The notes under the pieces were generated by a model. The model searched no databases, was not told the origin of the DNA, and saw nothing but the letters and a program-made list of their open reading frames with translations. Shown one piece after another: positions 20,079 through 64,000 of a DNA stretch of 64,000 nt (its first letter is position 1; each line of letters begins with the position of its first letter). This DNA comes from Candidatus Forterrea multitransposorum CG_2015-17_Forterrea_25_41 (lineage in GTDB: Archaea > Iainarchaeota > Iainarchaeia > Iainarchaeales > CSSED10-239), in contig CP045477.1 in the NCBI GenBank assembly GCA_009392915.1, positions 288,001 to 352,000 of the forward strand. Direction: 5' to 3'. A program made the position numbers and the translations under genes.

Positions 20079-21301
20079 GTTGGTATGATAAACCTTTGAG
20101 CAGGTATTCTTATTTTGTATCTCATAGACCTTATCTTGTAATACTAATTGTTATTATACTTATTATTTTTGCAATGTATTTTTCATCAAAAGTAGAATAT
20201 GTTAATTTTAGTAATTCTGATATGGTTCCTGATAATTATGAAGTTGTAAAAGCATTTAATCTTTTAGAAGATACTTTTGGAAATCCATCAAGTATTTTAA
20301 TTGCAATTGAACTTGATGATTCTTTTCAAGGTTATAATAAAGTAAATGATCTTAGAGATTATAAAGTTATTGAATATATTGATGTAATTTCTCAATATAT
20401 TGAAAACACAGATTATATTTTGGAAGTTTCAAGTATTTCAACAGCTGTAAAAGAAGTTAATAATGGAATAATTCCTAAATCTAATCTAGAAATTAATAAA
20501 CTTATTAGTAATAATTTTATTTTTGAAAATATAATTAGTAAAGATTATTCAATGACATTAATTAGAATTTCTTTAACTGATGATTTCAGTGAAGAAGATA
20601 ATGCTGAAGAAGTTGTTTTTAATCTTGAAAAAATAATTTCATCAATAGATGACCCTAATATAGGTCTTAATGTTAATGTAGCAGGAGAAATTTCAGCAGG
20701 ACCAATTGTTGAAAGAGAAATTGGACCTGATATGCAAAAGACAAGTAGTTATTCTATATATGGAATAATTATTTTATTAATATTTATATTTGTAGTTGGA
20801 GAAGTAATTTCTTCATTTAATAAAAAACAATCAAAAAAAATAAAAATTTTAACAGTTCTTGGTTCAATAAGGTTTGGACTTATTCCTCTTTCAACAATAT
20901 TAATTGGAGTAATTTGGACTTTTGGATATCTTGGACTTGTTAAAATGGGTCTTTCTTCAATTACTTCAGGAGTAATTTCAATGATTATGGGTATTGGAAT
21001 TGATTTTGGTATCCAGACAGTTATGAGATTTAAACAAGAAATAAAAGATAAAACTCCTGAAAAAGCAATGGAAGAAACCATGAAAAATGTTTTTATTCCA
21101 ATGGCAACAACAACTATTGCTGCATTAATTGGTTTTAAAGCAATGTCAATGGGAGAATTAACTTTACTTCAAGATTTAGGGAAAATGATGAGTTATGGAG
21201 TTACTGCTTGTTTTTTTGCAGCAATAACATTTGTTCCAGCAATTTTAGTTGTTTTGGAAAAATGGATTTTATCTTTAAAAGTAAAATTTAAAAAGAAATG
21301 A
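20075..21301 (+). CDS. RND-superfamily/MMPL-like exporter, second half
   Basis: Same architecture as the preceding gene. GIGIDFGIQTVMRFKQE resembles the MMPL GIGxDYxI..R..EE motif. The two genes are translationally coupled. Confidence 0.5.
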   Translation: MSWYDKPLSRYSYFVSHRPYLVILIVIILIIFAMYFSSKVEYVNFSNSDMVPDNYEVVKAFNLLEDTFGNPSSILIAIELDDSFQGYNKVNDLRDYKVIEYIDVISQYIENTDYILEVSSISTAVKEVNNGIIPKSNLEINKLISNNFIFENIISKDYSMTLIRISLTDDFSEEDNAEEVVFNLEKIISSIDDPNIGLNVNVAGEISAGPIVEREIGPDMQKTSSYSIYGIIILLIFIFVVGEVISSFNKKQSKKIKILTVLGSIRFGLIPLSTILIGVIWTFGYLGLVKMGLSSITSGVISMIMGIGIDFGIQTVMRFKQEIKDKTPEKAMEETMKNVFIPMATTTIAALIGFKAMSMGELTLLQDLGKMMSYGVTACFFAAITFVPAILVVLEKWILSLKVKFKKK

Positions 21302-28123: not shown

Positions 28124-29521
28124 ATGAAGGTCTTTTTAATGAATGAAATTGAATTTGATTATGAAAATAAAGAATTTAATGAAATAATTTATAAAATAAT
28201 GTTACATACTATAGAAATATCTGATTTTGATAATTATTTTACTAAAGGTCTTACAAATGAAGATAAAGAAAAAGTATTGACTGAAATAAAAAATTTAGAT
28301 TTTAGTATTATAGCAATTAATGAAGTTATTGTAGAAACTAAAAACTTTTTTAAAAAATATTTAGAATCAGATTTTACAGAATATTTAATTGATTATTTGA
28401 TAGGTTATAAAGAATTAGCACCGATCATGAAAAGTGATGATTATGAAGAAATAATGGTTAATGATTATAATAAAGTATTTGTAATTTCAAGAAAAAATAT
28501 ATATTATAAAACAAATATCGTTTTTGATAGAAGAAGTTTTAATGTTTTTTTAGAATATATTAAAAAAACAATTAATGGTGACTTTAATAAAAGAAAATTT
28601 ATTGATGGTGTACTACCTGATAACTCAAGAATAAATATTGTTTCTAAAGAGATTGCAAGATTTAATGTTATAACTATTAGAAAATTTTTAAGTAAACCAT
28701 TAACAATAGTTGATTTAATTAATAATAATACTTTTAATTATGAAGTTGCAGCTTATTTATGGACTGTAATTGAAGGATTTAATTTAAAACCAGCAAATCT
28801 TTTTATTTGTGGTGGAACAAGTACAGGTAAGACAACTCTTTTAAATATTTTACTTAACTTTGTACATCCAAAAGAAAGAGTTATTTGTGTTGAAGATACT
28901 AAAGAAATAAATACAACTATCTTTGATAATTCTGTAAGTCTTATTAGTGATATTTCTGATCCAGATAGTCTTTATAATATTACTTTAAACATATTAAGAA
29001 TGAGACCAGATAGAATAGTTATTGGTGAAACTAGAGGTAAAGAAGCTAAAGCTTTATTTATGGCAATGGATACAGGGCACCAAGGTTGTATATCTACAAT
29101 TCATGCAAATAATAGTGGAGATTTAATTAATAAATTATTATCTGAACCAATGAATATAGAAGAAAGTTACATTAAATTATTAGACATAATAATTACTTTT
29201 GATAAAAAATATATTGGTAATAAAATGTATAGATATGTTTCTCAAATTTCAGAAATTAGTAGACTTGGAAATATTACATTAAATCACATTTATTCCAATG
29301 ATAATATGGAATTTAGTTCTTCAGTTAATTTTATGAGTTCTCAATTTTTAGAAAAATTATGTAATTATATAAGTATTTCAAAAATAGAACTTCAAATTGT
29401 AATTGATAATAGAATTAAAATACTTAAAAGTATGGTTGATAGAAATATTAAAGATTCTGAAGAAATTAGAAATTTACTTATTGATCCAAGATTTGGTTAT
29501 AAAGAATTATTAAATAAATAA
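28124..29521 (+). CDS. secretion-superfamily ATPase (FlaI/TadA/VirB11-like) with long N-terminal domain
   Basis: Walker A GGTSTGKTT, Asp box VEDTKE, Walker B RMRPDRIVIGETRG and His box HQGCISTIHANN. Confidence 0.8.
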   Translation: MKVFLMNEIEFDYENKEFNEIIYKIMLHTIEISDFDNYFTKGLTNEDKEKVLTEIKNLDFSIIAINEVIVETKNFFKKYLESDFTEYLIDYLIGYKELAPIMKSDDYEEIMVNDYNKVFVISRKNIYYKTNIVFDRRSFNVFLEYIKKTINGDFNKRKFIDGVLPDNSRINIVSKEIARFNVITIRKFLSKPLTIVDLINNNTFNYEVAAYLWTVIEGFNLKPANLFICGGTSTGKTTLLNILLNFVHPKERVICVEDTKEINTTIFDNSVSLISDISDPDSLYNITLNILRMRPDRIVIGETRGKEAKALFMAMDTGHQGCISTIHANNSGDLINKLLSEPMNIEESYIKLLDIIITFDKKYIGNKMYRYVSQISEISRLGNITLNHIYSNDNMEFSSSVNFMSSQFLEKLCNYISISKIELQIVIDNRIKILKSMVDRNIKDSEEIRNLLIDPRFGYKELLNK

Positions 29522-51659: not shown

Positions 51660-53900
51660 ATGGATGAAAAAATACCTAGAGGATCTCCTGGACAACTTTA
51701 TAGTTCAATTTCCGTAGAATCCAGAGATTTTTCTTTAGATGAAGATAAACTATCTAAAAAAGTCGAAAATGGATATGTTTTATTTTGTAAAAAAGTATAT
51801 AATCAATTTCCTTCTCTTGGTAACAATACTAAATATGATGAAAAATTACAATCAACAATTGATTTCTTAAAATGGGATTTAAAAGCTGAAGAGTATTTTG
51901 CAGGTTATAAATTTGTAATTTTTGCAGGTATTTTTTTAACTTTTGTAACAGTATTATTATTATATTCTTATCTTCTTCCAACTCTTACAAAAATGTTTGG
52001 AAATGCAATGGTTCCTACAGTTTTTATTTTTGGAGGTCCAATTGTTCTTTTTATTCTAGGAATTGATTCTTTTAAAAATTATCCTCACAAAAAACTTAAT
52101 CTAGAAAAAATATATGCACTAACTTTTGTACCTGAAATCTTAGGGTATATGATAATGTCAATGAAACTTGTTCCAAATCTTGAAAAAGCAATTGAGTTTG
52201 CATCAAGTCATGGTCACGGTAAAATTGCAGATGACTTAAAAACTTTACTTTGGGAAGTAAAGGTTGGAATTAAAACAAGTGTTGCAGAAGCAATAGATGA
52301 ACTTGCTTATAAATGGGGAGATGTTTCTCAAGAATTTAAAAAGTCTTTAATGAAAATAAGGTCTAGTGTTATTGAAATATCTGAATCAAAAAGATATCAA
52401 ATATTAGATCAAACAATGGAAGACACTTTAACCTCTATTAAAGGAAAACTAGAAGAATATGCAAGAGGGCTTTCACAACCTGCAATGGTTATGTTTTATC
52501 TAGGTATTTTACTTCCTTTATTATTAATTATTATATTACCAGTAGGTTCTGCTTTTTCAGATTCAAATCTTGCAAGACCAATTTATTTAATTTTAATTTA
52601 TAATCTAATAATACCTATTGGTTGTTTAATTTTTGCAAGAAAAGTTATAAGAGAAAGACCAATAACATATATTCCTCCAGTTATTCCAGATAATCATCCT
52701 GATCTTCCTGCAAAAAATACAATGGTATTTGGAAGTTTTAAAATAAACATTTATGTTTTATTAATAATTGTTGGAACAATTCTAGTTGCAGGAAGTATTT
52801 TTACACAAGCAACTTTTGGAAAAACAAGATATAATGTTTTACTTTCAGAAGGATATATTCAACAAGGAGAAGATATTTCTCAAGCAGACTTTTTATGTAC
52901 TACAGAAGAACTAGTCTATAAAGCAACAGAACCTAAATTTCAATGTGCTTCTGAAAGAGATTTTTGGCAAAGACCTGAAAACAATACTACTCCTTTTTTC
53001 ATAATTTATGGATCTTTATTAACAATTAGTTTTTTAGTTTCAATTTATTTATATGGTAAAAATATTTACAAAAGAAGAGTTCAAGTTAATTCTCAAAAAA
53101 TGGAAGATGAGTTTAAAGATGCATTATATGTAATTGCAAGTAGATTAGGTGAAAATAAACCAATTGAAGAGGCCTTAAATCATACTAAAAATTTCCTTCC
53201 AAATTCTTTAATTGCACAAAATATTTTTGCAAGAACTTTAGATAATATTAGAATAATGGGTCTTAATTTAAAAGCTTCTTTGTTTGATCCTAATTATGGA
53301 GCTTTAAAAAATAATCCTTCTAGGTTAATTAATAGTGCAATGCTATTAGTCGTAGACTCTGTTCAATTAGGTGTATCTGTAGCTGCAAAAACATTAATGT
53401 CCTATTCAATGCAACTTAGAAATACTGATGAAGTATCTAAAATGCTTACAAGTTTAATTGCAGATATTACTGGAACATTAAATAGTATGGCAAAATTTAT
53501 TGCACCAATTGTTCTTGGTATTACAACTGCTCTTCAAAAAATTGTAATGTCAACATTAAACTCTATATCTTCAAGTAATGTTATGCAAGATATGGAAAAA
53601 ATGGTTCAAGGTATTGGTGAAGGTGCTACTGCTGCAGGACTTGGAAGTGTAAATATAGGTGGTGTTTCAGGTTTAGGAACCTCCATTGATCCTACAAAAA
53701 TAGCACAGTTTGCAAGTGCAACAACATTTTTAATAATTGTTGCAATATATGTTATACAGATTGTAATAATTATTGTATATTTTACAACAATGATAGAACA
53801 AGAAAACATTATCTTAGCAAAGGTAAGAATTGCACAAACTTTACCAATTGCAACAATTTTGTTTATATTAACAACAATTTTATCCAATTTTTTATTTTAA
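51660..53900 (+). CDS. FlaJ/TadC-like type IV pilus platform membrane protein (two T2SS-F domains)
   Basis: Two helical cytoplasmic domains (about 160-300 and 520-660), each followed by TM bundles. 746 aa. Confidence 0.6.
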   Translation: MDEKIPRGSPGQLYSSISVESRDFSLDEDKLSKKVENGYVLFCKKVYNQFPSLGNNTKYDEKLQSTIDFLKWDLKAEEYFAGYKFVIFAGIFLTFVTVLLLYSYLLPTLTKMFGNAMVPTVFIFGGPIVLFILGIDSFKNYPHKKLNLEKIYALTFVPEILGYMIMSMKLVPNLEKAIEFASSHGHGKIADDLKTLLWEVKVGIKTSVAEAIDELAYKWGDVSQEFKKSLMKIRSSVIEISESKRYQILDQTMEDTLTSIKGKLEEYARGLSQPAMVMFYLGILLPLLLIIILPVGSAFSDSNLARPIYLILIYNLIIPIGCLIFARKVIRERPITYIPPVIPDNHPDLPAKNTMVFGSFKINIYVLLIIVGTILVAGSIFTQATFGKTRYNVLLSEGYIQQGEDISQADFLCTTEELVYKATEPKFQCASERDFWQRPENNTTPFFIIYGSLLTISFLVSIYLYGKNIYKRRVQVNSQKMEDEFKDALYVIASRLGENKPIEEALNHTKNFLPNSLIAQNIFARTLDNIRIMGLNLKASLFDPNYGALKNNPSRLINSAMLLVVDSVQLGVSVAAKTLMSYSMQLRNTDEVSKMLTSLIADITGTLNSMAKFIAPIVLGITTALQKIVMSTLNSISSSNVMQDMEKMVQGIGEGATAAGLGSVNIGGVSGLGTSIDPTKIAQFASATTFLIIVAIYVIQIVIIIVYFTTMIEQENIILAKVRIAQTLPIATILFILTTILSNFLF

Positions 53901-53914
53901 AAAAATGAGTATAA

Positions 53915-54433
53915 ATGTTTATAAAAAATAATAAAGGACAAGCTTTTGAAGCATATCAATTATTGATTGCATTTATTATAGCAACTGCTATTTTAGGAAT
54001 TATTGTAATGATGATTTCAAAAACAAATAGTCAAGCAATAATTATTAGTAATCAAAAGATTGAAGATGCTTTTACTTCTGCAATAAATAGTCCTGTAATT
54101 AGTATGGAAAAACCTTTTGTTGTAAAAGATGTTTTAATAACAGGTATTTTAAGTTATGAAAGATATGAACAAATTTCAGGTATTGAAGAAGGGTGCTTTG
54201 GGTTTATTGTAGGGCCTGGAGTTACTTTACAACCATATGGAGTTATTGTTGATAAAAAATATTTAAAAACAAATGTTTATTTTTCATGTGGTTTAAGAAA
54301 CATGAGTGGTCTTCCTGATGAAATTTATCCAGGTGTATCTGGAAATAGGCCTTTTCAAGATGATCCTTCAAGGGAATGTGAAAGATTATTTTGTGTAATG
54401 TATATTAATAAAACTCCAGAAGTTTTAAATTAG
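53915..54433 (+). CDS. type IV pilin-like protein (class III signal peptide), Cys-containing
   Basis: MFIKNNKGQAFEAYQLLIAFIIATAILGIIVMMI has a KG|QAFE prepilin cleavage motif and a hydrophobic helix. Six Cys in the globular part. Confidence 0.6.
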   Translation: MFIKNNKGQAFEAYQLLIAFIIATAILGIIVMMISKTNSQAIIISNQKIEDAFTSAINSPVISMEKPFVVKDVLITGILSYERYEQISGIEEGCFGFIVGPGVTLQPYGVIVDKKYLKTNVYFSCGLRNMSGLPDEIYPGVSGNRPFQDDPSRECERLFCVMYINKTPEVLN

Positions 54434-54449
54434 ATTAAAAGAAGTAATT

Positions 54450-54953
54450 ATGAATAAAAATAAATGGACAAGAAATATTAAATATTTTTTAATTGCTATA
54501 ATAATACTTGTTTTTGGATATTTTTTTGGAATAATTATTTTAGGTATAATTGCGTTAATTATTGTTTTAATGAGTATTTTATTTTTAATATCTTTATTAT
54601 TTAATAAATCATTAGATTTTTTCTTAAATAAAAAAGTAAGATTGTTTATAACAATGTTTTTTTCTCTTGCAATATCTTATGGATTTATTATGTTATTTTG
54701 GAAAAGTATAGATTCTATTTTAAATGTAGTTTTAAAAATTTCTGTTATCTGGGCAATTACTGCTTTTATTTTTGGATCTCTTTGGAATATTTTTGTTATT
54801 AGAAAAAGAGTAGTTTATAAAAATAAAGTTTTTGATTATAAAGAAAAAGATTTAAAGATTGGAATTCAGTTTAAAGATATTATATTTATGATTTTAATTC
54901 CTTTAATCTTTAGTTTAACATTTAGTATTTTAAAAGGAATTTTAATAATATAA
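54450..54953 (+). CDS. polytopic membrane protein inside pilus locus
   Basis: 167 aa with 4-5 TM segments. No peptidase Asp motifs. Confidence 0.4.
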   Translation: MNKNKWTRNIKYFLIAIIILVFGYFFGIIILGIIALIIVLMSILFLISLLFNKSLDFFLNKKVRLFITMFFSLAISYGFIMLFWKSIDSILNVVLKISVIWAITAFIFGSLWNIFVIRKRVVYKNKVFDYKEKDLKIGIQFKDIIFMILIPLIFSLTFSILKGILII

Positions 54954-55019
54954 TAACATTTAAATATCTTTTGGACTAAAAAATTAATAAATATTATATT
55001 ATTGAGGTGAAAAATAATT

Positions 55020-55553
55020 ATGAAATTAATATCTTTAAAAAATAGTAAAGGTCAAGCTTTCTCAACATTTCAGTTATTAATTGCTGCTGTTGTTGCTTTA
55101 GCTTTATTAGGTGTATTAATGCCAATTATTGGTGGAATTAATCCTGGTACAGACCGTTTAGTTGATGCTTTAAAAGAAAGAATTAATACTCAACAAGATC
55201 AACCAGGAACTTTAACCTTAACTGATGAAATAAAAGTATCTTCAAAAGGAGATCCGTATGTTTCTGCAGCAACAATTACAGAAGGAACAGGACTAGCTGA
55301 TGATCAAGTAAAATTTATGTTAAATGGATATGAAAATGATTTTGCAGTTAACGAAGGTAATAATGTTTTAGAAGTTAGAGCTTCAAGTTCAGTAACATAT
55401 CAATTTGGAGTTTTATGTCATAGAAATTTTGAAGAACTTGAAAACTCTATAAATGATTATTCATCAATTATTAAAGAAACAGAAGATCTTCCTACATTTG
55501 ATGAAGAAAACGATAATGTAAGAGTATGTGTTGTTGTTCCAGTAAAAAGATAA
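55020..55553 (+). CDS. type IV pilin-like protein (class III signal peptide)
   Basis: MKLISLKNSKGQAFSTFQLLIAAVVALALLGVLM. GAGGTGA Shine-Dalgarno. Confidence 0.65.
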   Translation: MKLISLKNSKGQAFSTFQLLIAAVVALALLGVLMPIIGGINPGTDRLVDALKERINTQQDQPGTLTLTDEIKVSSKGDPYVSAATITEGTGLADDQVKFMLNGYENDFAVNEGNNVLEVRASSSVTYQFGVLCHRNFEELENSINDYSSIIKETEDLPTFDEENDNVRVCVVVPVKR

Positions 55554-55576
55554 AATTAGTTTAAAAAAGATAATAT

Positions 55577-55777
55577 ATGAAAACAATTAAAAAGAAAATT
55601 TTAATGATCCTAAAAGATCAAAAAGGACAAACAGAGTCTAATACAGTTTTCTTTTTAATTGTTGTCGCTATTGTTGCAATAATTTTGATTGCTGTTGTAA
55701 AACCAATGTTTAATAAATCAGTAAAAACTTCAGCAAAACAAGCAGCACTTCCTTCTCAAACGATACCTGTTGAATAA
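55577..55777 (+). CDS. short pilin-like protein
   Basis: KDQKGQTESNTVFFLIVVAIVAIILIAV with only about 25 aa beyond the helix. Confidence 0.5.
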   Translation: MKTIKKKILMILKDQKGQTESNTVFFLIVVAIVAIILIAVVKPMFNKSVKTSAKQAALPSQTIPVE

Positions 55778-55836
55778 ATAATTTTATTTAAAAAAGAAAA
55801 CTATTTTAAATACTTCTTATAATATCTTTATAATAT

Positions 55837-56418
55837 ATGTTATTAAAGATATCAAATAAAGCACAAATGAGTGCACCTTTTGAATTATTAGTTGCAATTA
55901 TAGTTATGATTTTTGTAGTTGCTGCAGGAAGCTATGCTCTTGCAAACTTAAATGAAAATACTTGTCTTGGAAATAAAAGACAAGAAATGAGTAATCTTGT
56001 TTCTTCTTTAAGAGAAGTTGTTTTAGGATCAGATCTAGCATACAGAACAATTGATTTTTCAACAAAAGCATGTTATAATGAAAATAATGAACAAACATAT
56101 CTAAGAGTGGTTGATAATGATAGAGATGTTTGTGAAAGATTTTGTGGGTCTGGAACAAGCTGTATTCTTTTACAATACCAGTATGTTGATGAAGTTAAAC
56201 TTGATTATAAATATCCAATAGATCCTGTTTGTACATATCTTCCTACAAATTTAGTTTTTGGTTCAGATACAGATTGTGGAATAGACCCAGATGTTACTAA
56301 TGAAGAAACTATTGATCCTACTGAAGATAATTCAAATATAAAAAGAGGAACATATAAAATATATAAACTATCAAATTCAGGTCCTTTATATAAAGTTTGT
56401 ATGATAAAAATAAGGTGA
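55837..56418 (+). CDS. pilin-like protein, cysteine-rich (10 Cys)
   Basis: NKAQMSAPFELLVAIIVMIFVVAAG N-terminus (A at -1). Globular part has CxxxC/CxxC pairs. Confidence 0.5.
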   Translation: MLLKISNKAQMSAPFELLVAIIVMIFVVAAGSYALANLNENTCLGNKRQEMSNLVSSLREVVLGSDLAYRTIDFSTKACYNENNEQTYLRVVDNDRDVCERFCGSGTSCILLQYQYVDEVKLDYKYPIDPVCTYLPTNLVFGSDTDCGIDPDVTNEETIDPTEDNSNIKRGTYKIYKLSNSGPLYKVCMIKIR

Positions 56419-56426
56419 TTTTTTAA

Positions 56427-57074
56427 ATGTTTGATTTTGCTCTTTCAAAAATAAATATGTTAATTTTTGTAACTGCAATAGCTGTAGTTGTAATTTTTTT
56501 TATGAATACCTTAAATGATACTCTTAAAACAAGACAAAGTTATGAACTTGCATTTAAAATAGGTAAAGAAATCAAGACTGTAATTGATTCAGATAGTTAT
56601 TGTTCAATAAAATTTATTGAAGTTCCTAAAACAATAAGAATTAGAGAAGGAAGTAGTCTTTCTGGAATTACTTATAAGCTAGGATTAAAAAGTTATATGC
56701 AACTTGATAATCAATCACTAATTATTTATTTAACTGATTTAAAAGAAAAAAATATTCTTGGAGCTTATAATTTAGATTATAATGGAACAATTAATTTTTT
56801 TTCTTCAGAATATAATAACACAGAATATAGATTTAATAATGAAGGTGAAGAAGAAATAGTTTATTACCCTAGAGAAGAAAATTCAAATACTACAAGTTTA
56901 TTAATTCTTAAAAATATTGAAAACAATGAAAATAATTATTTTGTAATACCATGTGAAAAAAAATATGGTGAATATAGTTGTAAGAGATATGTTTGTCAAG
57001 ATAATGATGATATAAAAGATTTTTCTTGTTTAAATGATTTCTGTAGCACATCTATGGAGGAAAATAATACATGA
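56427..57074 (+). CDS. pilin-like / pilus-associated protein, Cys-rich C-terminus
   Basis: N-terminal hydrophobic helix MLIFVTAIAVVVIFF without a KGQ motif. C-terminal CEKKYGEYSCKRYVCQDNDDIKDFSCLNDFC. Confidence 0.4.
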   Translation: MFDFALSKINMLIFVTAIAVVVIFFMNTLNDTLKTRQSYELAFKIGKEIKTVIDSDSYCSIKFIEVPKTIRIREGSSLSGITYKLGLKSYMQLDNQSLIIYLTDLKEKNILGAYNLDYNGTINFFSSEYNNTEYRFNNEGEEEIVYYPREENSNTTSLLILKNIENNENNYFVIPCEKKYGEYSCKRYVCQDNDDIKDFSCLNDFCSTSMEENNT

Positions 57075-57592
57075 ATCAAAAAGGATTTATAGGATCAATT
57101 GGAGATGATCTTCCAAGTCTTATTCCAATCTTTTTAGGTTTAGTTGTATTTTTTTCTGTATTCTTAGGTGTATTTAATGATTATAATGCAAAAAATAGAG
57201 TTTATACTTTAAATCAAGAAGCTGTTGAAATTTCTATGCAACTTAAATCAGATCCTGTTATTGTTAGTTATGATCATTTTATTGAAAAATGTAATGAGAT
57301 TAATACTCCAAAAAACTGGAATGCTTTTTTAGTTGATCTGCCACAAAATACTGAAGATTTTAAGTCTATAACTTTAGAAGATATTTATGATGATTATCAA
57401 AATAATGTAATAAAAATAGAAAATCCTGATTTTGGCACAGAAAATTATTTTATCTGTAATGAAGATGAAGAGAACTTAGATCAATTAAAAGATACTTCTA
57501 AAAATATAATTAATTTTTTATATCCTGTAGTTTTACAAAACCAGGATGGTTATTCAACAACTGCAAGATTATATATTTTAATATGGGAATAA
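57071..57592 (+). CDS. pilin-like / pilus-associated protein
   Basis: MNQKGFIGSIGDDLPSLIPIFLGLVVFFSVFLGVF. Overlaps the previous stop (ATGA). Confidence 0.4.
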   Translation: MNQKGFIGSIGDDLPSLIPIFLGLVVFFSVFLGVFNDYNAKNRVYTLNQEAVEISMQLKSDPVIVSYDHFIEKCNEINTPKNWNAFLVDLPQNTEDFKSITLEDIYDDYQNNVIKIENPDFGTENYFICNEDEENLDQLKDTSKNIINFLYPVVLQNQDGYSTTARLYILIWE

Positions 57593-57593
57593 A

Positions 57594-58343
57594 ATGAAAC
57601 TGAAATTAAAAAATTATAAAGGCCAAGCTGCAATGACAGATTCTTTGTTTTTTTTAACAATAATTGTAGCTTTGTGTGTTTTATTATTTCAATTTTCTGC
57701 AACATATGGAGAAAGAGTAGATCTTGCAATTAATAATTTATATTTTAAAGAATACACAAATTCAAGTCTTAAGACAATTTATTATACAGATATACCCTTA
57801 GATAATACTAAAGATATAGAGGATAGTTTAGAAACTGATTATTTAATTACATCTTTAAAAAGTGATTATTTAAGTGATGAAAAAATAGGTTATAGTGATA
57901 TTAATTCTTTAAATAAAGATGATGTTAAGGATCTTTCAAAATATAATTTATTCCATACAATTAAATCTTTAATGTATGCACTTCCAAATTATGATTATAT
58001 TTATTATATACAAGAATCAAGTGGACAAAAATTTATTTATTTTATGCTAAAAATAAATAATTTTGAAGATAATGAGCTTGAACAACTTTATTATTTATGT
58101 GAACCTACATCTATTAATCCAGTAAGAAATGTTGTTCAGAGAACAAATAAAATATATTCATCTTCTTCTCCTCAAATATATCAAACAAAAGATACTGGAG
58201 AAGTAAGAGCAACTTCTAATTTAACAATATGGCCTTCAACAAGCAGTATTAATAAAGAATATCTAGAAGGAAGATTAGACTCTCTTACTGATAATGAAAT
58301 TGAAAATATAACTAATTTAAAATGTAAAGAATATATTGAATAA
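57594..58343 (+). CDS. type IV pilin-like protein (class III signal peptide)
   Basis: MKLKLKNYKGQAAMTDSLFFLTIIVALCVLLF. Confidence 0.6.
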   Translation: MKLKLKNYKGQAAMTDSLFFLTIIVALCVLLFQFSATYGERVDLAINNLYFKEYTNSSLKTIYYTDIPLDNTKDIEDSLETDYLITSLKSDYLSDEKIGYSDINSLNKDDVKDLSKYNLFHTIKSLMYALPNYDYIYYIQESSGQKFIYFMLKINNFEDNELEQLYYLCEPTSINPVRNVVQRTNKIYSSSSPQIYQTKDTGEVRATSNLTIWPSTSSINKEYLEGRLDSLTDNEIENITNLKCKEYIE

Positions 58344-58348
58344 GAAGA

Positions 58349-59002
58349 CTAAAACTTTAAACCTAAGTCATCTTCATTATCTTCTTCAAGATCTAAAGAA
58401 TCAGAATCATCGTCCAATAAATCTTGTATATCAGAATCTTCTTTTTTCTTAGTTTTCTTTTCTTCTTTAACATTTTTTTTAGAAGGTTCTTCTTTCTTTT
58501 TTGAAGTTTCTTTTTTTGGTGCTAATTTATTTTCATTTCTTATTTCTTCAGATTCAAGTTGATTAAAAACATCTTCAACTAAAGATTTCATATTGTCTGT
58601 TTCAACTATTTCTCCTGATTCATCTTTAGAGGCTCTATAATGTTTACTACTTTTAATAGTTTCTTGAATTTCTTCTTTTTTAAAATTATTTAAATTATCA
58701 TCATTACTTACTTGAGAATAAATAGCATCAGCAATACTATCTATGTCAGGAGCTACAATATCTGAAATGTTTCTTAAAACTTTTTGAATCTTTTCATCTT
58801 TATGTACAATTAGTTTTTTCTTTTGACCAACATCTAAAAGACTTTTAATATTATCCTCTTCTTCACTGTTATCTTGATAAGTTTTAGAAGAATAATTATG
58901 TTTTTCTTCATGTCCAAAAGGTACATCTGAATAAACAATTTCTCCATTTATATATTTTCTAAAATGTCTTCTTTCTCTTCTAGGTACTTTTTCAATTTCC
59001 AT
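58349..59002 (-). CDS. acidic/lysine-rich hypothetical protein with poly-acidic C-terminal tail (...DDDSDSLDLEEDNEDDLGLKF)
   Basis: The ORF-track start at 59074 adds a hydrophobic leader overlapping the promoter. The ATG at 59002 (MEIEKVPRRERRHF) is more plausible. Confidence 0.4.
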   Translation of the reverse strand: MEIEKVPRRERRHFRKYINGEIVYSDVPFGHEEKHNYSSKTYQDNSEEEDNIKSLLDVGQKKKLIVHKDEKIQKVLRNISDIVAPDIDSIADAIYSQVSNDDNLNNFKKEEIQETIKSSKHYRASKDESGEIVETDNMKSLVEDVFNQLESEEIRNENKLAPKKETSKKKEEPSKKNVKEEKKTKKKEDSDIQDLLDDDSDSLDLEEDNEDDLGLKF

Positions 59003-59117
59003 ATTTAATTTTCTCTTTAATTTTCTTATTTTTATATAAATTAATATATATAATAAGCCTTTTAAATCTTTCAATTAATATATATTATAGATATATTATA
59101 TTTTTGGGGATAAATTA

Positions 59118-59618
59118 ATGGAAAACATATTTCAAACAATCTTAAATTATTTATTATTTATTTTAAAGTTAGTTGGTGTTTCAATACTTTTCTCAATTCC
59201 TTTCTTTATAATTGTAAAAATATTCAAATCTAAATTTATTAATTTAAGAAAGAAATTTAGTGTTATTGGTTCTCTTTTTATAATTATTTATATAATTTCA
59301 TACATTATTTTATTATTAATTTATTTTTTACCAATTATTTCAACTTTTTATCAAGATTTAACATTTTGGCAATCAGTAGGTTTTATTTTCTATCATTTAA
59401 TAAGATTAATTTTAATTAACATAATAATTTCAGGAGTTATTCTTTCCTTTTCATTTATAACTCTTGCAATTTATGATAAGTCTGAAACAAATAAAAAGAA
59501 ACCTTATCATAATCTTAATTTATTTAAAAGTCTAATAATTACAAATATAATTATATTTTTTATATTATTAGTCTTTCCAAAATTAATAGCATTATTAGTT
59601 TATTTAATATATATATAA
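59118..59618 (+). CDS. membrane protein (4-5 TM)
   Basis: 166 aa, hydrophobic. GGGGA Shine-Dalgarno. Immediately upstream of the giant ORF. Confidence 0.45.
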   Translation: MENIFQTILNYLLFILKLVGVSILFSIPFFIIVKIFKSKFINLRKKFSVIGSLFIIIYIISYIILLLIYFLPIISTFYQDLTFWQSVGFIFYHLIRLILINIIISGVILSFSFITLAIYDKSETNKKKPYHNLNLFKSLIITNIIIFFILLVFPKLIALLVYLIYI

Positions 59619-59631
59619 AAAAAGAGAAACT

Positions 59632-62600
59632 ATGAAAACAAAAAGACTTTGGGCAATATTTTTTTTAATATTAATGATAAATGGAGTTTTTGCATCTACA
59701 ATAGATCCAAACAGAGTATTTTCAACTGAAGATACATCTTATTATTTTGATGATGCTATTCCAATTAATTATACAGATGAACCTATAAACTATACTCAAG
59801 ATAAAGTTATTTCAGAATGTTACACAGAAGAGCTTTCTCCTGAAGCTGTAGAAAATATTTGGAATGAGATTTTAGTTAATGGTTTTAAAGCTGATTTAAT
59901 AACAAGTGATCAACCTGCAAACTTAAATAGAGAAACATTAAAAGCAAATGAAGTTATAATTACAGACAAAGATACAAAATCAGGAGATGTTGTAGGAAAA
60001 ACAGAAATTCCTGATAAAATAATGGATCCTTTAGAAGTTCCAACTATTTTAGGTCAAGTATGTTATGGTCCTTTTTCAAGTGGACTTGATCTTGATAGTA
60101 CCCTAAGAGTTGGAAGATGTGCTGGTGGAGACCAAGCAGCTTGTTATCTTGAAGGAGAAGGATTATTTAGACAAAATGGAAGTTATGGTTTTATTGATCA
60201 AACTTTTTCTGTAAGTAAAGATTTTTTAGATATGTTAGGTCTTAAAAAATTAGAAGAAGTTTCAAATGAATTAATTGACCCAGAGTTAGATTATGATACA
60301 AATGTTGATTTAGGTTTATTTTCTGATATGTCTTATGAAGAACTTGCAGAGTTTAGAAAAAGTCAATTTCAAGATAGTAATTTAACTGAAATAGATATTA
60401 AAAAAATGGAATTAGTTTTAGATAAAGCTATTGAAAACAGTATGTTTACTGATTCTTTTAATGCAAGTATGGAAAGCACTTGTAATTCTGATAATTGTTA
60501 TATTAACATGTATTCTCTTTTTGACAAAGTTTTTAATCAATATTATTCTGCTGATATGGTATTTACTTCAGCATCTCCTGTTCTTTGGAAATTTACTGGA
60601 AAAATATTTAGAAATGTACCAAATAAACTTGGAGCTCAAAAATTAATTGCATCTGATAAGATTGGTGGAATAAGAGGTAAAAATGGTTTTTTAGATAATT
60701 TTTTAAATAAAGATATGAGTGCAGTAAGTTCTGCAGTACAAACCTATAAATATTCAAAGATTACAAAAAACATTGATGATTATGCTGCTAAACTTGCAAA
60801 AAGTAATGACAATATAATCAAGAATATTAATAGATATAACATGAAACCAGAGTTTGATAAATATGTAAATGCTTTAAACTCTAAAAAGAATGCAGACACA
60901 ATTAAAAATGAATTCTTTAAAGATGGAGCTTTTGCAAAAATGAATAAACCTCAACAAAGAGTGTTCATGGAATCTGTTCTTGAATATCAAAACAATATTA
61001 GAACAGTTAGAATGGTACAAGATTTTACAACTGATAATTTAAAAAATACTTTAAAAGAACCTCTTGAAAATTTATTTAATAAATCTAAAACAATGGAAGA
61101 CTTTTATCAATCTTTAACAAAAGAAGAATATGATCTTTTACTTGAAGAAACAAAAAGATTAAATGGTCTTAATAAATCATTTTCAACATTTACTGAAAAT
61201 AAATTTAAATGGGATGATGGTGCTGATAATATCACTCTTTTAAAAGAAAGAGGAAAAATAATTAATGATGAAGAAGTTTTATTAAATAAAGTAAGACTTA
61301 AAAATGAAGTAACTTCAACAGAACTTACAGGATCTTCTAAATTTGGAGATATTATTTCTGAAAATAAAGTTTCTCCTTTCCAAACTAAAAAAATAACTGT
61401 TAATTTTAAAGATGGTCCAAGTGAGGTTGAAGTAATTATTCCTTTTAAAGAAAAAATAAGTGATACTTCAACTATGCTTAATTATAATGATATAATATAT
61501 AACAAAAAACCAGATGTATTAATAGAATATGTTGCAAAAGATGGAACTGCAAAAAAAGTGAGAGGCTCTGTAATTGATATTGGAGATGTTGATCCTGGTA
61601 AACAAATAAATATGAGAGATATTAAAGATACTGCAGTTCCTGATGCAGAACTTTCAAAATATGGAATTAATCCTTTAGAAGTATCTTATGGTTATTTACA
61701 AGAACTTGGAATTAAAAAAATAAAAGATGCAGAAATAGTAACTGATGGTGTCGTAAGTGTTTTAAAAGACCAAGGATGGAGTACAGGAAGAGGATTAAGT
61801 TATATAAATCAAAGAATGAAACAACAAACTGTAACTCAATGGGATAAAAGAGGATTTAATATAATGTCAGATTCTGCAAAAGCTTATCTTTATAATTTTG
61901 GATATTGGCAATTTAAAACAGCTGGTTCAACTATATTTGGTGGAGCTTTTGATAGATATAGTATGTTTAGAATACCAGAAACATATACTTCTATTATTTT
62001 TAAACATGGTGAAAGTGGAGATATATACAATGATTCTTATATAGATTTCTTTGCAAATGATGGTTCTGATCAAGGAGATCTTTTTATGGATTATTTTAAT
62101 TCAATTATATTTTGGATGGTAAATCTTCCTAAAGGTGCTTTAGAAAACACAGAGTGGGAAACAACACAAGGTTTTTCAAACTGGATAACAGAACTAACTG
62201 AAGGACATATAAGAAGAAGTTCTACAGATAATATTGCAATATTAACTGATGCAATGAACAATAATTGTTCAACAACTTCTTGTCATATAAAAGTTGGAGA
62301 CTCTTCTCTTCTTGAAGAAGTTACAAGAAGTAAATCTATGGATGCAAATAATTCAACATCTACAAGTCTTAAGAAAAATATTGAAGTTAATTATGCAACT
62401 GGAAATGCAATAAAAACAACAAGTTATATTTTAGAAAACACAAGTGAAGAAAACTTTGAAGAAGAAGGACAAACATTAATTGCATTTTCTCATCATACAG
62501 ATTATGATGGTTCTCTTGCAGGTTTTAACTCTACAGATTCAGTAAATCTTTTACAATCAATTAACGAAGAAGAAACTTGTTCTGATAAACTTAAAAATTT

Positions 62601-64000
62601 AGAAGTCATGGGAATACCAATAGGTTGGACAAACCAAATAACAGGAAAATCATATAGAGCAGGTGCTGTTGCAGCTGGTTTTTCAAATATTGTTTATTAT
62701 TCTTTAAGTGTTCCTCAACACAGAGTAGTTTTAGGAGCAATTTTTGGTGATATTTTACCACAAGTTGTAATTGTTCCAGAAATTTATAATTGTGTAGATC
62801 ATGAAGAAGGTTATTATTCACATTTCTTTGTTGCCTCTGAAGAATATGAAAGAATTGAAAAAGATCCAAAAAATAAAGTTGGAGATGCAATTTCAAAAGG
62901 AGCAGATTCTGTTGAAAAGAGTTTAACAAATATTACAAAGAACACAGAACTTCAAGAATCAATTTCAAAAACAACACAAGAAGTAAAACAATTTGCTGAA
63001 ACTGAAATTAAAGATAATCCAATTATGCAATCAAGAATAGAAACACAAGGTAATACTTCTGGATCAATGAATGCTAAACTTTTCTTCCTTGAAATTGGAG
63101 AAAGTTCAATGTGTAGAGCAAGTGGTTATAATGATAAAGGTGTTGAACATTTAGTTGATTCTAAAACAGGAGAAACTTTAGTTGTTGATAAAGAAGAAGG
63201 TGTTGTTGAAATTGTTGATAAAGATGGAAATGTTAAAGAAATAATTTCTTCAAAAAATAAAGATTGGGTAAGACTAATGGCAACTAACTTAGGAATTCCT
63301 GCAAAAGTAATTCCTCATAGTCTTTCATATATCCCTGTACCTGACACAAATACTCCTTTGTTTAATATTGATGTTTATGGTAATCTAAAGATAGATGATG
63401 CTGAATTTTTAAGTTGTTTAAAAAGAAATTACTATGAACAAACTGGTCTTGAAATGAGTGGTAATACTTTAACAGAATATTTAGGTTCTGTAAAACAAGT
63501 AATCACAACAAATAATTTAAACCCAGATAGTCAATATGACATAATACCAAAAGGAATGAATAGTTCAGCAGAAATAATAGCAGAAGGAACTCCAAGAAAA
63601 ATAGCTTCTGGTGAATCTGCAAGAATAAATGTTCTAGGAAACAGAACTACAAAATTATATCCTATTGAAGGAAAAGAAGTCACTCTTGGTAAAAATATTT
63701 CTGTTCAATTTGAAAGAGGACAATTAATCTATAATGGAGAAAAGAATAGTTATATTATGTGGGTTGAACAAACCTATGTAATGCATCAATCTGAAATAAA
63801 AGGAATGGATGTTGATCCTATAAAAGAAACTAATCCTGAAACTGGTTGTGAAGAAGATGCCTTTGAAATTAGTGTTTCACCAGATACTTCTAACCCTGAA
63901 GCTGTTAAAAAGTCAGAAAATATGAATAAAGCTTTAGAAAAAGTTGGACCATTTAAGATGTTTGATACACCTACAAAAACATTTATTTTCTATACAACAG
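59632..64000 (+). CDS. giant secreted/cell-surface protein, at least 1456 aa (3' end beyond window)
   Basis: ATG at 59632 after AAAGAGAAAC. Signal peptide MKTKRLWAIFFLILMINGVFAS. Frame 1 is open without a stop to the window edge by manual translation. The protein is Cys-containing and Asn/Thr-rich. It is absent from the ORF track only because it lacks a stop in the window. Confidence 0.7.
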   Translation, partial: MKTKRLWAIFFLILMINGVFASTIDPNRVFSTEDTSYYFDDAIPINYTDEPINYTQDKVISECYTEELSPEAVENIWNEILVNGFKADLITSDQPANLNRETLKANEVIITDKDTKSGDVVGKTEIPDKIMDPLEVPTILGQVCYGPFSSGLDLDSTLRVGRCAGGDQAACYLEGEGLFRQNGSYGFIDQTFSVSKDFLDMLGLKKLEEVSNELIDPELDYDTNVDLGLFSDMSYEELAEFRKSQFQDSNLTEIDIKKMELVLDKAIENSMFTDSFNASMESTCNSDNCYINMYSLFDKVFNQYYSADMVFTSASPVLWKFTGKIFRNVPNKLGAQKLIASDKIGGIRGKNGFLDNFLNKDMSAVSSAVQTYKYSKITKNIDDYAAKLAKSNDNIIKNINRYNMKPEFDKYVNALNSKKNADTIKNEFFKDGAFAKMNKPQQRVFMESVLEYQNNIRTVRMVQDFTTDNLKNTLKEPLENLFNKSKTMEDFYQSLTKEEYDLLLEETKRLNGLNKSFSTFTENKFKWDDGADNITLLKERGKIINDEEVLLNKVRLKNEVTSTELTGSSKFGDIISENKVSPFQTKKITVNFKDGPSEVEVIIPFKEKISDTSTMLNYNDIIYNKKPDVLIEYVAKDGTAKKVRGSVIDIGDVDPGKQINMRDIKDTAVPDAELSKYGINPLEVSYGYLQELGIKKIKDAEIVTDGVVSVLKDQGWSTGRGLSYINQRMKQQTVTQWDKRGFNIMSDSAKAYLYNFGYWQFKTAGSTIFGGAFDRYSMFRIPETYTSIIFKHGESGDIYNDSYIDFFANDGSDQGDLFMDYFNSIIFWMVNLPKGALENTEWETTQGFSNWITELTEGHIRRSSTDNIAILTDAMNNNCSTTSCHIKVGDSSLLEEVTRSKSMDANNSTSTSLKKNIEVNYATGNAIKTTSYILENTSEENFEEEGQTLIAFSHHTDYDGSLAGFNSTDSVNLLQSINEEETCSDKLKNLEVMGIPIGWTNQITGKSYRAGAVAAGFSNIVYYSLSVPQHRVVLGAIFGDILPQVVIVPEIYNCVDHEEGYYSHFFVASEEYERIEKDPKNKVGDAISKGADSVEKSLTNITKNTELQESISKTTQEVKQFAETEIKDNPIMQSRIETQGNTSGSMNAKLFFLEIGESSMCRASGYNDKGVEHLVDSKTGETLVVDKEEGVVEIVDKDGNVKEIISSKNKDWVRLMATNLGIPAKVIPHSLSYIPVPDTNTPLFNIDVYGNLKIDDAEFLSCLKRNYYEQTGLEMSGNTLTEYLGSVKQVITTNNLNPDSQYDIIPKGMNSSAEIIAEGTPRKIASGESARINVLGNRTTKLYPIEGKEVTLGKNISVQFERGQLIYNGEKNSYIMWVEQTYVMHQSEIKGMDVDPIKETNPETGCEEDAFEISVSPDTSNPEAVKKSENMNKALEKVGPFKMFDTPTKTFIFYTT

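What the first reader, a model, noticed from the sequence alone, without database searches (positions are those of the whole stretch)
51660..58343. Type IV pilus-like locus: two-domain FlaJ/TadC platform gene followed by seven consecutive pilin-like genes, several cysteine-rich, with no ATPase or prepilin peptidase in cis
Seven ORFs in a row start with an archaeal class III (prepilin) signal, KG|Q followed by a hydrophobic helix. Three of them carry 6-10 cysteines in the exported part, which is unusual for archaeal pilins and suggests disulfide-stabilised extracellular subunits. The platform protein has duplicated T2SS-F domains. The only secretion ATPase in the window (28124-29521) lies 22 kb away as a stand-alone gene. 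No PibD/FlaK-like peptidase is present. If this is a small-genome, possibly episymbiotic archaeon, this locus is the prime candidate for a host-attachment appendage.
Basis: partly seen in the sequence, partly recalled or inferred. Interest (0 to 1): 0.6.

Follow-up and report, generated by a model that had tools for sequence, protein, structure and literature searches.

The report
Archaeal type IV pilus operon, ATPase elsewhere
This is a real but divergent type IV pilus-like assembly operon of a tiny-genome Iainarchaeota (DPANN) archaeon, conserved gene-for-gene across that phylum; its lack of an adjacent motor ATPase is a trait of one sub-lineage, so it is a new member of a known kind of machine.

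Summary
The genes exist exactly at the stated coordinates, but the description needs correcting. After the 746-aa platform gene come eight ORFs, not seven. Five (A, B, S, C, F) carry a K-[G/A]|Q class III (Epd/EppA-type) prepilin N-terminus. One (E) has KG|F followed by a conserved polar stretch. One (D) has only an N-terminal anchor with no cleavage motif. One (54450-54953) is a 4-TM membrane protein. Cysteine counts are 4, 2, 0, 8, 6, 2, 3, not three proteins with 6-10. The conserved cysteines come in even numbers and are 97-100% invariant across relatives.

The order platform-A-B-S-C-D-E-F-N-giant surface protein is conserved in relatives; platform homologues occur in 285 species genomes. 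Distant relatives have a 764-aa ATPase directly upstream of the platform. The window's clade does not. Two clade members place an orthologue of the window's stand-alone 465-aa ATPase 2-3 kb upstream.

No prepilin peptidase lies in the window or near the operon in relatives. A host-attachment role is speculative.

The parts
51660..53900 (+). Platform protein (PilC/TadC/FlaJ family), 746 aa, about 8-10 TM helices
53915..54433 (+). Prepilin-like protein A (172 aa, KG|Q, 4 conserved Cys)
   Evidence: Motif and single N-terminal hydrophobic helix. KGQ and all 4 Cys are conserved in 55 orthologues. It is a full-length paralogue of B (hhalign 99.9%).
54450..54953 (+). 4-TM membrane protein M (167 aa), not pilin-like; present only in the window's clade
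   Evidence: No Pfam or NCBIfam hit.
55020..55553 (+). Prepilin-like protein B (177 aa, KG|Q, 2 conserved Cys); candidate major subunit
   Evidence: KGQAFS.F.LLIAAVVA is conserved in 88 orthologues. There are 1-3 copies per genome. It has the strongest Shine-Dalgarno of the operon: 72% of orthologues have a match of at least 5 nt, against 10-44% for the other genes.
55577..55777 (+). Short prepilin-like protein S (66 aa, KG|Q, no Cys; mature about 49 aa, Flp-like size)
   Evidence: [KR][AG]Q and IKPMF are conserved.
55837..56418 (+). Cys-rich prepilin-like protein C (193 aa, KA|Q, 8 invariant Cys)
56427..57074 (+). N-terminally anchored protein D (215 aa, no canonical cleavage site, 6 Cys of which 4 are family-wide)
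   Evidence: LSK.NLLIFVTAI is conserved at 90% or more. No profile similarity to the other families.
57071..57592 (+). N-terminally anchored protein E (173 aa, KG|F then the near-invariant GDDLPSLIP, 2 conserved Cys)
57594..58343 (+). Prepilin-like protein F (249 aa, KG|Q, 2 conserved Cys)
   Evidence: KGQAAITDALFFL is conserved. Only weak N-terminal profile similarity to B and S.
58349..59074 (-). Conserved neighbour R (charged, probably cytoplasmic protein), function unknown
   Evidence: Orthologues occupy the same position in L001, and by eye in L002. No Pfam hit.
59118..59618 (+). Conserved 4-TM protein N, always between the pilin genes and the giant gene
   Evidence: No conserved Asp, so not a peptidase.
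59632..64000 (+). Giant surface protein (runs off the window; 1629 aa in L085): Sec signal, 14 Cys, 20 sequons, C-terminal TM anchor
   Evidence: No Pfam or PDB match. It is a conserved downstream neighbour in both clades.
28124..29521 (+). Stand-alone FlaI/CpaF-like secretion ATPase (465 aa), candidate motor in trans
   Evidence: Pfam T2SSE 1.9e-25. NCBIfam FlaI 199 bits, below the 550 cutoff. Intact Walker A GGTSTGKT, Walker B RIVIGE and His box. Its neighbours are an unrelated kinase-like gene and a phosphatase. Orthologues at 50% identity lie 2-3 kb upstream of the platform in L007 and L014.

Best explanation
The locus is the structural and platform operon of an archaeal type IV filament (type IV pilus-like) machine. 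It is specific to Iainarchaeota (Diapherotrites, DPANN) and is closest in logic to the Methanococcus Epd / 'system 1' pili.

Inferred mechanism:
1. Five prepilins (A, B, S, C, F) are inserted into the membrane.
2. Their short basic leaders (6-13 aa) are cut after Gly/Ala by a class III signal peptidase encoded elsewhere. This leaves an N-terminal Gln, as in EppA substrates.
3. The polytopic platform protein (51660-53900), driven by a hexameric PilB/FlaI-type ATPase acting in trans, extracts the subunits and stacks them through their N-terminal helices.
4. B is the most likely bulk subunit. A, C and F are minor subunits, and the role of the Flp-sized S is open (minor or alternative bulk subunit). 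D and E are bitopic accessory or assembly proteins.
5. The conserved, even-numbered cysteines form disulfides that stabilise the exported domains.

The ancestral operon carried its own 764-aa ATPase directly upstream. In the window's small-genome clade (about 0.66 Mb) that gene is no longer adjacent. The stand-alone 465-aa ATPase at 28124 is the only candidate motor in view.

Shown: platform fold, motif conservation, operon conservation, ATPase distribution. Inferred: cleavage, polymerisation, disulfides, which subunit is major, which ATPase is used, and the biological role (adhesion).
For: Platform:
- Pfam T2SSF hits 33/42 homologues, with 24.5-29 bits in ten of them.

Prepilins:
- The [KR][GA]Q site plus hydrophobic helix is conserved across orthologues, with a pilin-like long helix followed by a beta domain in the C model.
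- A, B and C share the N-terminal roughly 75 residues (96-99.9% hhalign).
- The only recurrent NCBIfam hit among 147 orthologues is pilin_ComGC (15 members, best 2.5e-4).
- KG|Q sites match the experimentally characterised Epd pilins of M. maripaludis (PMC4371748).

Operon:
- The order is identical in L001 and L002 and across the 79 further loci as far as their downstream DNA extends. Platform relatives occur in 285 species genomes.

ATPase:
- A 764-aa T2SSE ATPase abuts the platform in nearly all loci of the distant clade that have enough upstream DNA.
- It is absent within 10 kb in the 17 window-clade loci.
- An orthologue of the window ATPase sits next to the same Zn-ribbon / AP-endonuclease / Fer4 neighbours in L007 and L014.
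- The ATPase motifs are intact.
- Both the platform and the ATPase are single-copy in the window.
Against: - No Pfam or NCBIfam pilin or class III model recognises any window protein, and no Pfam pilin family is recurrent among 147 orthologues.
- The window platform itself is below the Pfam T2SSF cutoff, and Foldseek against PDB gave no significant hit.
- D and E cannot be shown to be pilins.
- No prepilin peptidase was found in the window, in 10 kb downstream, or near the operon in 82 loci.
- The 465-aa-type ATPase is also stand-alone among housekeeping genes in relatives that have the operon-linked ATPase. Its link to this operon is therefore only circumstantial.
- A 764-aa-type ATPase elsewhere in the 0.66-Mb genome is not excluded. 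The single motif scan was a weak negative.
Confidence: 0.8

Rival explanations
1. It is a short pseudopilus or bindosome-like surface-assembly device rather than a long adhesive pilus. The seven conserved, non-redundant subunits would form a piston or anchoring stalk. That stalk would insert, display or organise the adjacent 1629-aa C-terminally anchored surface (S-layer-like) protein, by analogy with T2SS pseudopilins GspG-K or the Sulfolobus Bas bindosome.
For: Seven distinct subunit families are kept in fixed order in the loci whose downstream DNA reaches that far. The 4-TM protein N and the giant secreted, anchored protein are invariably adjacent. Large S-layer-like or adhesin proteins are known companions of archaeal T4P loci (PMC4858521).
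Against: Sequence cannot separate a pilus from a pseudopilus. B has a strong ribosome-binding site and is duplicated in many genomes, as expected for a bulk filament subunit. No substrate-binding-protein domains of the Bas type were found.
Confidence: 0.15
2. It is a DNA-uptake (competence-type) pilus. It would supply nucleotides to an organism with a 0.66-Mb genome, analogous to the Com pseudopilus or the T4P proposed for CPR bacteria.
For: The only recurrent curated-family hit for the subunits is ComGC (15/147). The genome is very small.
Against: The ComGC matches are weak (best 2.5e-4) and probably reflect only the generic N-terminal helix. No ComEC/ComEA-like channel or DNA receptor is in the operon or its conserved neighbourhood.
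Confidence: 0.05
3. It is an archaellum (motility) locus.
For: The stand-alone ATPase's best NCBIfam match is FlaI, and some sources name its homologues FlaI.
Against: - The FlaI score of 199 bits is far below the equivalog cutoff of 550.
- There is no archaellin domain in the operon proteins and no FlaF/G/H-type hit among the window ORFs scanned.
- +1 Gln leaders are the Epd-pilin type, which the archaellin peptidase FlaK does not process (PMC4371748).
Confidence: 0.02

Closest known systems
Epd pili of Methanococcus maripaludis / archaeal TFF 'system 1' (clade 1 of Makarova, Koonin & Albers 2016; bioRxiv 10.64898/2026.04.22.720090)
   Same: Many different prepilin-like genes next to the platform gene. 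The processing motif is K/R-G/A|Q with an obligatory +1 Gln (EpdA-E: RAQ, KGQ; PMC4371748). System 1 is reported in methanogens and some DPANN archaea. Distant relatives of this locus keep the ATPase-platform-pilins order.
   Different: - One 746-aa platform gene instead of two (EpdJ/K).
- The acidic residue sits at +3, +4, +6 or +7 rather than +5.
- The pilin globular domains belong to families not in Pfam or NCBIfam.
- No ATPase lies next to the platform in this clade.
- No EppA-like peptidase was seen.
Bacterial PilC/GspF/TadB-TadC platform proteins (Pfam T2SSF, PF00482)
   Different: It is much longer (746 aa). The second half is not recognisable as T2SSF by sequence. A roughly 110-residue segment (about 335-445) sits between the two halves.
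Cysteine-rich T4P components of Thermoproteales systems (subclade 4E; PMC4858521)
   Same: The exported subunits carry multiple conserved cysteines predicted to form disulfides, and a large S-layer-like or adhesin protein is encoded alongside.
   Different: It belongs to a different phylum that is not known to be a thermophile, and no sequence similarity to those systems was demonstrated here.
DPANN 'dark-matter' T4P islands noted by Makarova, Wolf & Koonin 2019 (PMC6393860)
   Same: The concept is the same: an ATPase/TadC signature plus signal-peptide proteins that match no known pilin family.
   Different: That paper gives examples only. I found no paper describing the phylum-wide conserved A-B-S-C-D-E-F order or the clade-specific uncoupling of the ATPase reported here.

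Membership tests
Type IV filament (T4P-like) assembly system | Polytopic platform protein of the PilC/GspF/TadC/FlaJ family | tested here: met
Type IV filament (T4P-like) assembly system | Subunits with class III signal peptide: short basic leader, G/A at -1, hydrophobic helix | tested here: met
   Met by motif and conservation for A, B, S, C and F and by the helix-plus-beta model for C. Not met for D, atypical for E. No curated HMM recognises them.
Type IV filament (T4P-like) assembly system | PilB/FlaI-type hexameric ATPase working with the platform | tested here: inconclusive
   One intact T2SSE ATPase lies 22 kb away. Its orthologue is 2-3 kb from the platform in 2 of 17 clade loci. The ancestral operon ATPase is absent locally. 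The functional pairing was not tested.
Type IV filament (T4P-like) assembly system | A24-family prepilin peptidase (PibD/FlaK/EppA) | tested here: not met
   None in the 64-kb window, in 10 kb downstream, or near the operon in 82 loci by a crude GxGD/multi-TM screen. The rest of the 0.66-Mb genome could not be read.
Pfam T2SSF (PF00482) | Score at or above the gathering threshold (25.2 bits) | tested here: not met
   The window protein scores 17.1 bits, E 0.0054. Homologues at 43-46% identity score 24.5-29.1 bits.
Two-domain FlaJ/TadC architecture | Two T2SSF domains in one polypeptide | tested here: inconclusive
   Only one Pfam stretch (N-half) appears in the window protein and in 10 homologues. 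C-halves alone give no T2SSF hit at E<=10. hhalign N against C gives 0.5%. The AF2 helix-length pattern does repeat: 30-11-16-13-15-59 in the N-half against 51-11-17-6-16-67 in the C-half.
Epd-type (EppA-dependent) pilins / archaeal TFF system 1 | +1 glutamine after K/R-G/A | tested here: met
   KGQ or KAQ in 5 ORFs. Q is conserved in 122/131 C-family representatives. Compared with the Epd sites listed in PMC4371748.
Epd-type (EppA-dependent) pilins / archaeal TFF system 1 | +5 glutamate; two platform genes; adjacent ATPase; EppA peptidase | tested here: not met
   The acidic residue is at +3, +4, +6 or +7. There is a single platform gene. There is no adjacent ATPase in this clade. No peptidase was seen.
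Archaellum | Archaellin-domain subunits and a FlaI equivalog, plus FlaH/F/G | tested here: not met
   No archaellin hit. FlaI scores 199 bits against a 550 cutoff. No Fla accessory genes among the window ORFs scanned.
Pfam/NCBIfam archaeal pilin or class III signal families | HMM match to the N-terminal domain | tested here: not met
   No such family appears for the window proteins at E<=1, nor among the 25 most recurrent Pfam families for 147 orthologues at E<=0.1. The only signal is weak ComGC hits in 15/147.

The most novel reading that the evidence does not exclude
In this reduced-genome Iainarchaeota clade, the operon's dedicated 764-aa ATPase has been lost. A seven-subunit, disulfide-bonded filament is instead driven in trans by the phylum's orphan 465-aa FlaI-like ATPase. 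It would work together with the adjacent 1629-aa anchored surface protein, and with the clade-specific 4-TM protein M, as the cell's host- or surface-contact organelle.
Probability: 0.2. Interest if true: 0.55.

Novelty: new member of a known kind. Interest (0 to 1): 0.35.

Why it matters
Iainarchaeota have no cultured representative that I know of, and I found no paper describing their surface structures. This operon is conserved in relatives, with platform homologues in 285 species genomes. It is therefore the phylum's main candidate surface filament, built from subunit families that are absent from Pfam and NCBIfam.

It gives concrete targets for metaproteomics or cryo-ET: B, S and the 8-Cys subunit C. 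It also offers a natural comparison for asking how a type IV filament platform copes with losing its neighbouring motor gene, since some clades have the ATPase in cis and others do not. It does not change what is known about how such machines work.

Tried and rejected
- A profile of 42 platform homologues against PDB sequences gave nothing relevant.
- Foldseek of the platform model against PDB gave no significant hit. The best was a T4aP machine model at E 0.64, and SpoIIIAB at probability 0.75.
- The afdb50 library was unavailable.
- hhalign of the platform N-half against its C-half showed no similarity. Pfam on ten isolated C-halves at E<=10 gave no T2SSF hit.
- A look-up of the window's first gene, intended to extend the window upstream, found no record.
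- I scanned metagenomes with an AT-biased back-translation of the 764-aa ATPase motif MSGRPFDE.HPVLD, looking for that ATPase in the window's clade. There were three hits, all from the distant clade with the ATPase next to the platform. This is a weak negative.
- A crude screen for GxGD multi-TM proteins near the operon in 82 loci found nothing recurrent.
- Proteins M and N were considered as hidden peptidases and rejected. They have one conserved Asp (M) or none (N).
- The archaellum reading was rejected.
- Literature searches for Diapherotrites or Iainarchaeota pili found no specific description.


Full report
**What is in the sequence**

The window is about 24% G+C. On the + strand, a 746-aa membrane protein gene (51660-53900) is followed by eight tightly packed ORFs, spaced -4 to 66 bp apart. 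I label them as follows:
- A: 53915-54433
- M: 54450-54953
- B: 55020-55553
- S: 55577-55777
- C: 55837-56418
- D: 56427-57074
- E: 57071-57592
- F: 57594-58343

A, B, S and F begin with a short basic leader ending in KG|Q, followed by a single hydrophobic helix. C has KA|Q. E has KG|F, but about 11 polar residues (IGSIGDDLPSL) precede its hydrophobic segment. D has only an N-terminal hydrophobic anchor (MFDFALSKINMLIFV...) with no G/A site. M is a 4-TM protein with no such motif.

Cysteine counts for A, M, B, S, C, D, E, F are 4, 0, 2, 0, 8, 6, 2, 3. The count of pilin-like genes ('seven in a row') and the cysteine numbers ('three with 6-10') are not.

The clustering is not chance. Among all ORFs of at least 50 aa in the window, the class III-like pattern occurs only here, apart from two dubious cases.

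**The organism and the family**

The platform protein has hundreds of homologues. The named ones are 'Candidatus Diapherotrites / Iainarchaeum / ainarchaeum' MAGs. A scan of one genome per GTDB species found relatives in 285 genomes, and 79 loci were fetched.

Proteins identical to window proteins lie on contigs of 663,598 to 672,501 bp. This is a DPANN archaeon with a genome of at least about 0.66 Mb, probably not much larger.

**The platform protein**

- The window protein itself only grazes Pfam T2SSF: 17.1 bits on residues 164-294, against a cutoff of 25.2.
- 33 of 42 aligned homologues hit T2SSF.
- Ten homologues at 43-46% identity score 24.5-29.1 bits. Each has a single stretch, and it is always in the N-half.
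- An AF2 model built from the 42-sequence alignment has pLDDT 77 and pTM 0.71 and is all-helical.
- Foldseek against PDB found nothing significant.

Membership of the PilC/GspF/TadC/FlaJ superfamily is therefore supported by fold and by family-level sequence evidence.

The claimed duplication is not demonstrated:
- hhalign of N-half against C-half profiles gives 0.5% probability.
- Ten isolated C-halves give no T2SSF hit even at E<=10.
- The only hint is that the helix-length pattern of the model repeats: 30-11-16-13-15-59 against 51-11-17-6-16-67 residues.

**The downstream proteins**

Orthologues were collected from 82 loci by iterative HMM search, then assigned to families and aligned.

| Family | Conserved N-terminal feature | Conserved Cys |
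|---|---|---|
| A | [KR][GA]Q | 4 |
| B | [KR][GA]Q | 2 |
| S | [KR][GA]Q | 0 |
| C | [KR][GA]Q | 8 |
| D | LSK.NLLIFVTAI (>=90%) | 4, plus 2 more in the window's close relatives |
| E | KGFIGPIGDDLPSLIP (>=90%) | 2 |
| F | [KR][GA]Q | 2 |

The conserved cysteines are present in 94-100% of orthologues, and the number is always even.

For C, an exhaustive HMM search of 1.84 billion cluster representatives found only 235 relatives. In 131 of them (no more than 50% mutual identity), K/R, G/A, Q, a Glu at +7 and all eight Cys are conserved. The Cys are at 97-100%.

Profile-profile comparison:
- A and B are full-length paralogues (99.9%).
- A and B share the N-terminal roughly 75 residues with C (96%).
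- S and F show only weak N-terminal similarity.
- D and E resemble nothing else in the operon.

No Pfam pilin or class III family recognises the window proteins, nor is any recurrent among 147 orthologues. The only recurrent NCBIfam hit is ComGC, in 15 of 147 members with a best E-value of 2.5e-4.

Taken together, five genes are credible prepilins of uncatalogued families. Two are N-terminally anchored accessory proteins. One is a polytopic membrane protein.

The K-G/A|Q site is the type described for the EppA-dependent Epd pilins of Methanococcus maripaludis, where the +1 Gln is required for cleavage (PMC4371748).

**Operon conservation and the ATPase question**

The order platform-A-(M)-B(1-3 copies)-S-C-D-E-F-(R on the minus strand)-N-giant protein is kept in both the close and the distant clade. 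M occurs only in the window's clade.

In the distant clade (platform 40-48% identical), a well conserved 764-aa T2SSE ATPase lies immediately upstream of the platform. This holds in nearly every locus with enough upstream sequence. In about a dozen loci the gene is interrupted by inteins.

In the window's clade (57-83% identical, 17 loci), a ferredoxin-like gene sits upstream instead. No 764-aa-type ATPase is found within 10 kb, nor in the 64-kb window.

The window's only secretion ATPase (28124-29521, 465 aa) has these properties:
- It has intact Walker A, Walker B and His-box motifs.
- It is flanked by unrelated genes.
- It is only 22% identical to the operon-type ATPase.
- In L007 and L014, its 50%-identical orthologue lies 2-3 kb upstream of the platform. 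It sits just beyond the same Zn-ribbon / AP-endonuclease / Fer4 genes that flank the window's platform. About 20.6 kb therefore separates these partners in the window.

That is circumstantial support for a link. Against it, 41-47% identical homologues are stand-alone genes among housekeeping genes in other genomes, and orphan PilB homologues are common in archaea (PMC4371748).

A motif scan of metagenomes for an AT-rich 764-aa-type ATPase found only distant-clade loci, which is a weak negative. Which ATPase drives the machine here is unresolved.

**Peptidase**

- No A24-type peptidase is in the window. All multi-TM ORFs have other Pfam identities or lack a GxGD motif.
- None is in the 10 kb downstream.
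- None is recurrent near the operon in 82 loci.
- M has a single conserved Asp and N has none, so neither is a hidden peptidase.

**Which subunit is the bulk one?**

B has by far the best-conserved Shine-Dalgarno: a match of at least 5 nt in 72% of orthologues, against 10-44% for the other genes. It is also duplicated in many genomes. It is my candidate for the major subunit. The Flp-sized S (mature about 49 aa) is the alternative. This is inference only.

**Comparison with what is known**

- Archaeal type IV filament systems are extremely diverse (PMC4858521).
- DPANN islands with an ATPase/TadC signature and unrecognisable pilins were pointed out in 2019 (PMC6393860).
- A 2026 preprint places DPANN systems mainly in 'system 1', the Epd-like group (10.64898/2026.04.22.720090).
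- Conserved multi-cysteine subunits and accompanying large S-layer-like proteins were already described for Thermoproteales systems (PMC4858521). The cysteines here are therefore not unprecedented.
- I found no paper describing this Iainarchaeota operon specifically.

**Verdict**

This is a genuine, phylum-conserved, divergent type IV pilus-like operon, and a new member of a known kind. The specific points of interest are modest:
- subunit families absent from curated databases;
- strictly conserved, even-numbered cysteines;
- a platform whose second half has diverged beyond recognition;
- clade-specific uncoupling of the motor ATPase.

The host-attachment role is plausible for a DPANN archaeon but rests on no evidence here. 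Interest 0.35.

Noticed in passing
window 59632-64000 (continues; full gene in L085:10515-15404): A 1629-aa protein with a Sec signal peptide, 14 Cys, 20 N-glycosylation sequons, and a C-terminal TM anchor with a basic tail. It has no Pfam or PDB match. It is conserved immediately downstream of the pilin operon in both clades, so it is an S-layer-like or adhesin candidate.
   Followed up: partly
L018:1256-5035, L080:4468-9915 (also L019, L028, L037, L042, L053, L054, L059, L065, L076, L081): The operon-linked 764-aa-type ATPase of relatives is interrupted by one intein (L018) or two (L080) that carry LAGLIDADG homing endonucleases. The first insertion is near residue 497, just after the Walker A region.
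   Followed up: partly
window 54450-54953: The 4-TM gene M, inserted between pilin genes A and B, occurs only in the clade that lacks the ATPase next to the platform. Its function is unknown.
   Followed up: partly
window 29521-50184 versus L007 and L014: In two relatives, the 465-aa ATPase orthologue sits directly beside the Zn-ribbon / AP-endonuclease / Fer4 genes that flank the platform. In the window, about 20.6 kb of transporters and other genes lies between them, which suggests an insertion or rearrangement.
   Followed up: partly
window 58349-59074 (-): A conserved, highly charged protein R (N-terminal PRRERRHFRKY motif, acidic Lys/Glu/Asp-rich tail) is always encoded on the opposite strand between the last pilin gene and gene N. 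It has no family match.
   Followed up: no
whole window; contigs Ga0100390_10000002 (663,598 bp) and a 672,501-bp contig: Proteins identical to window proteins recur in many public assemblies (94 index blocks for gene N, 52 of them on 0.2-1 Mb contigs). This suggests a widespread organism with a genome of about 0.66 Mb.
   Followed up: partly
L002:5922-6470 and L002:1-5287: In the 1.19-Mb relative, an archaeosortase-like gene (Exosortase_EpsH) and a 2797-aa surface protein lie just upstream of the ATPase-platform operon.
   Followed up: no
window 18900-21301: Two adjacent MMPL/SecDF-like membrane protein genes (392 and 408 aa).
   Followed up: no
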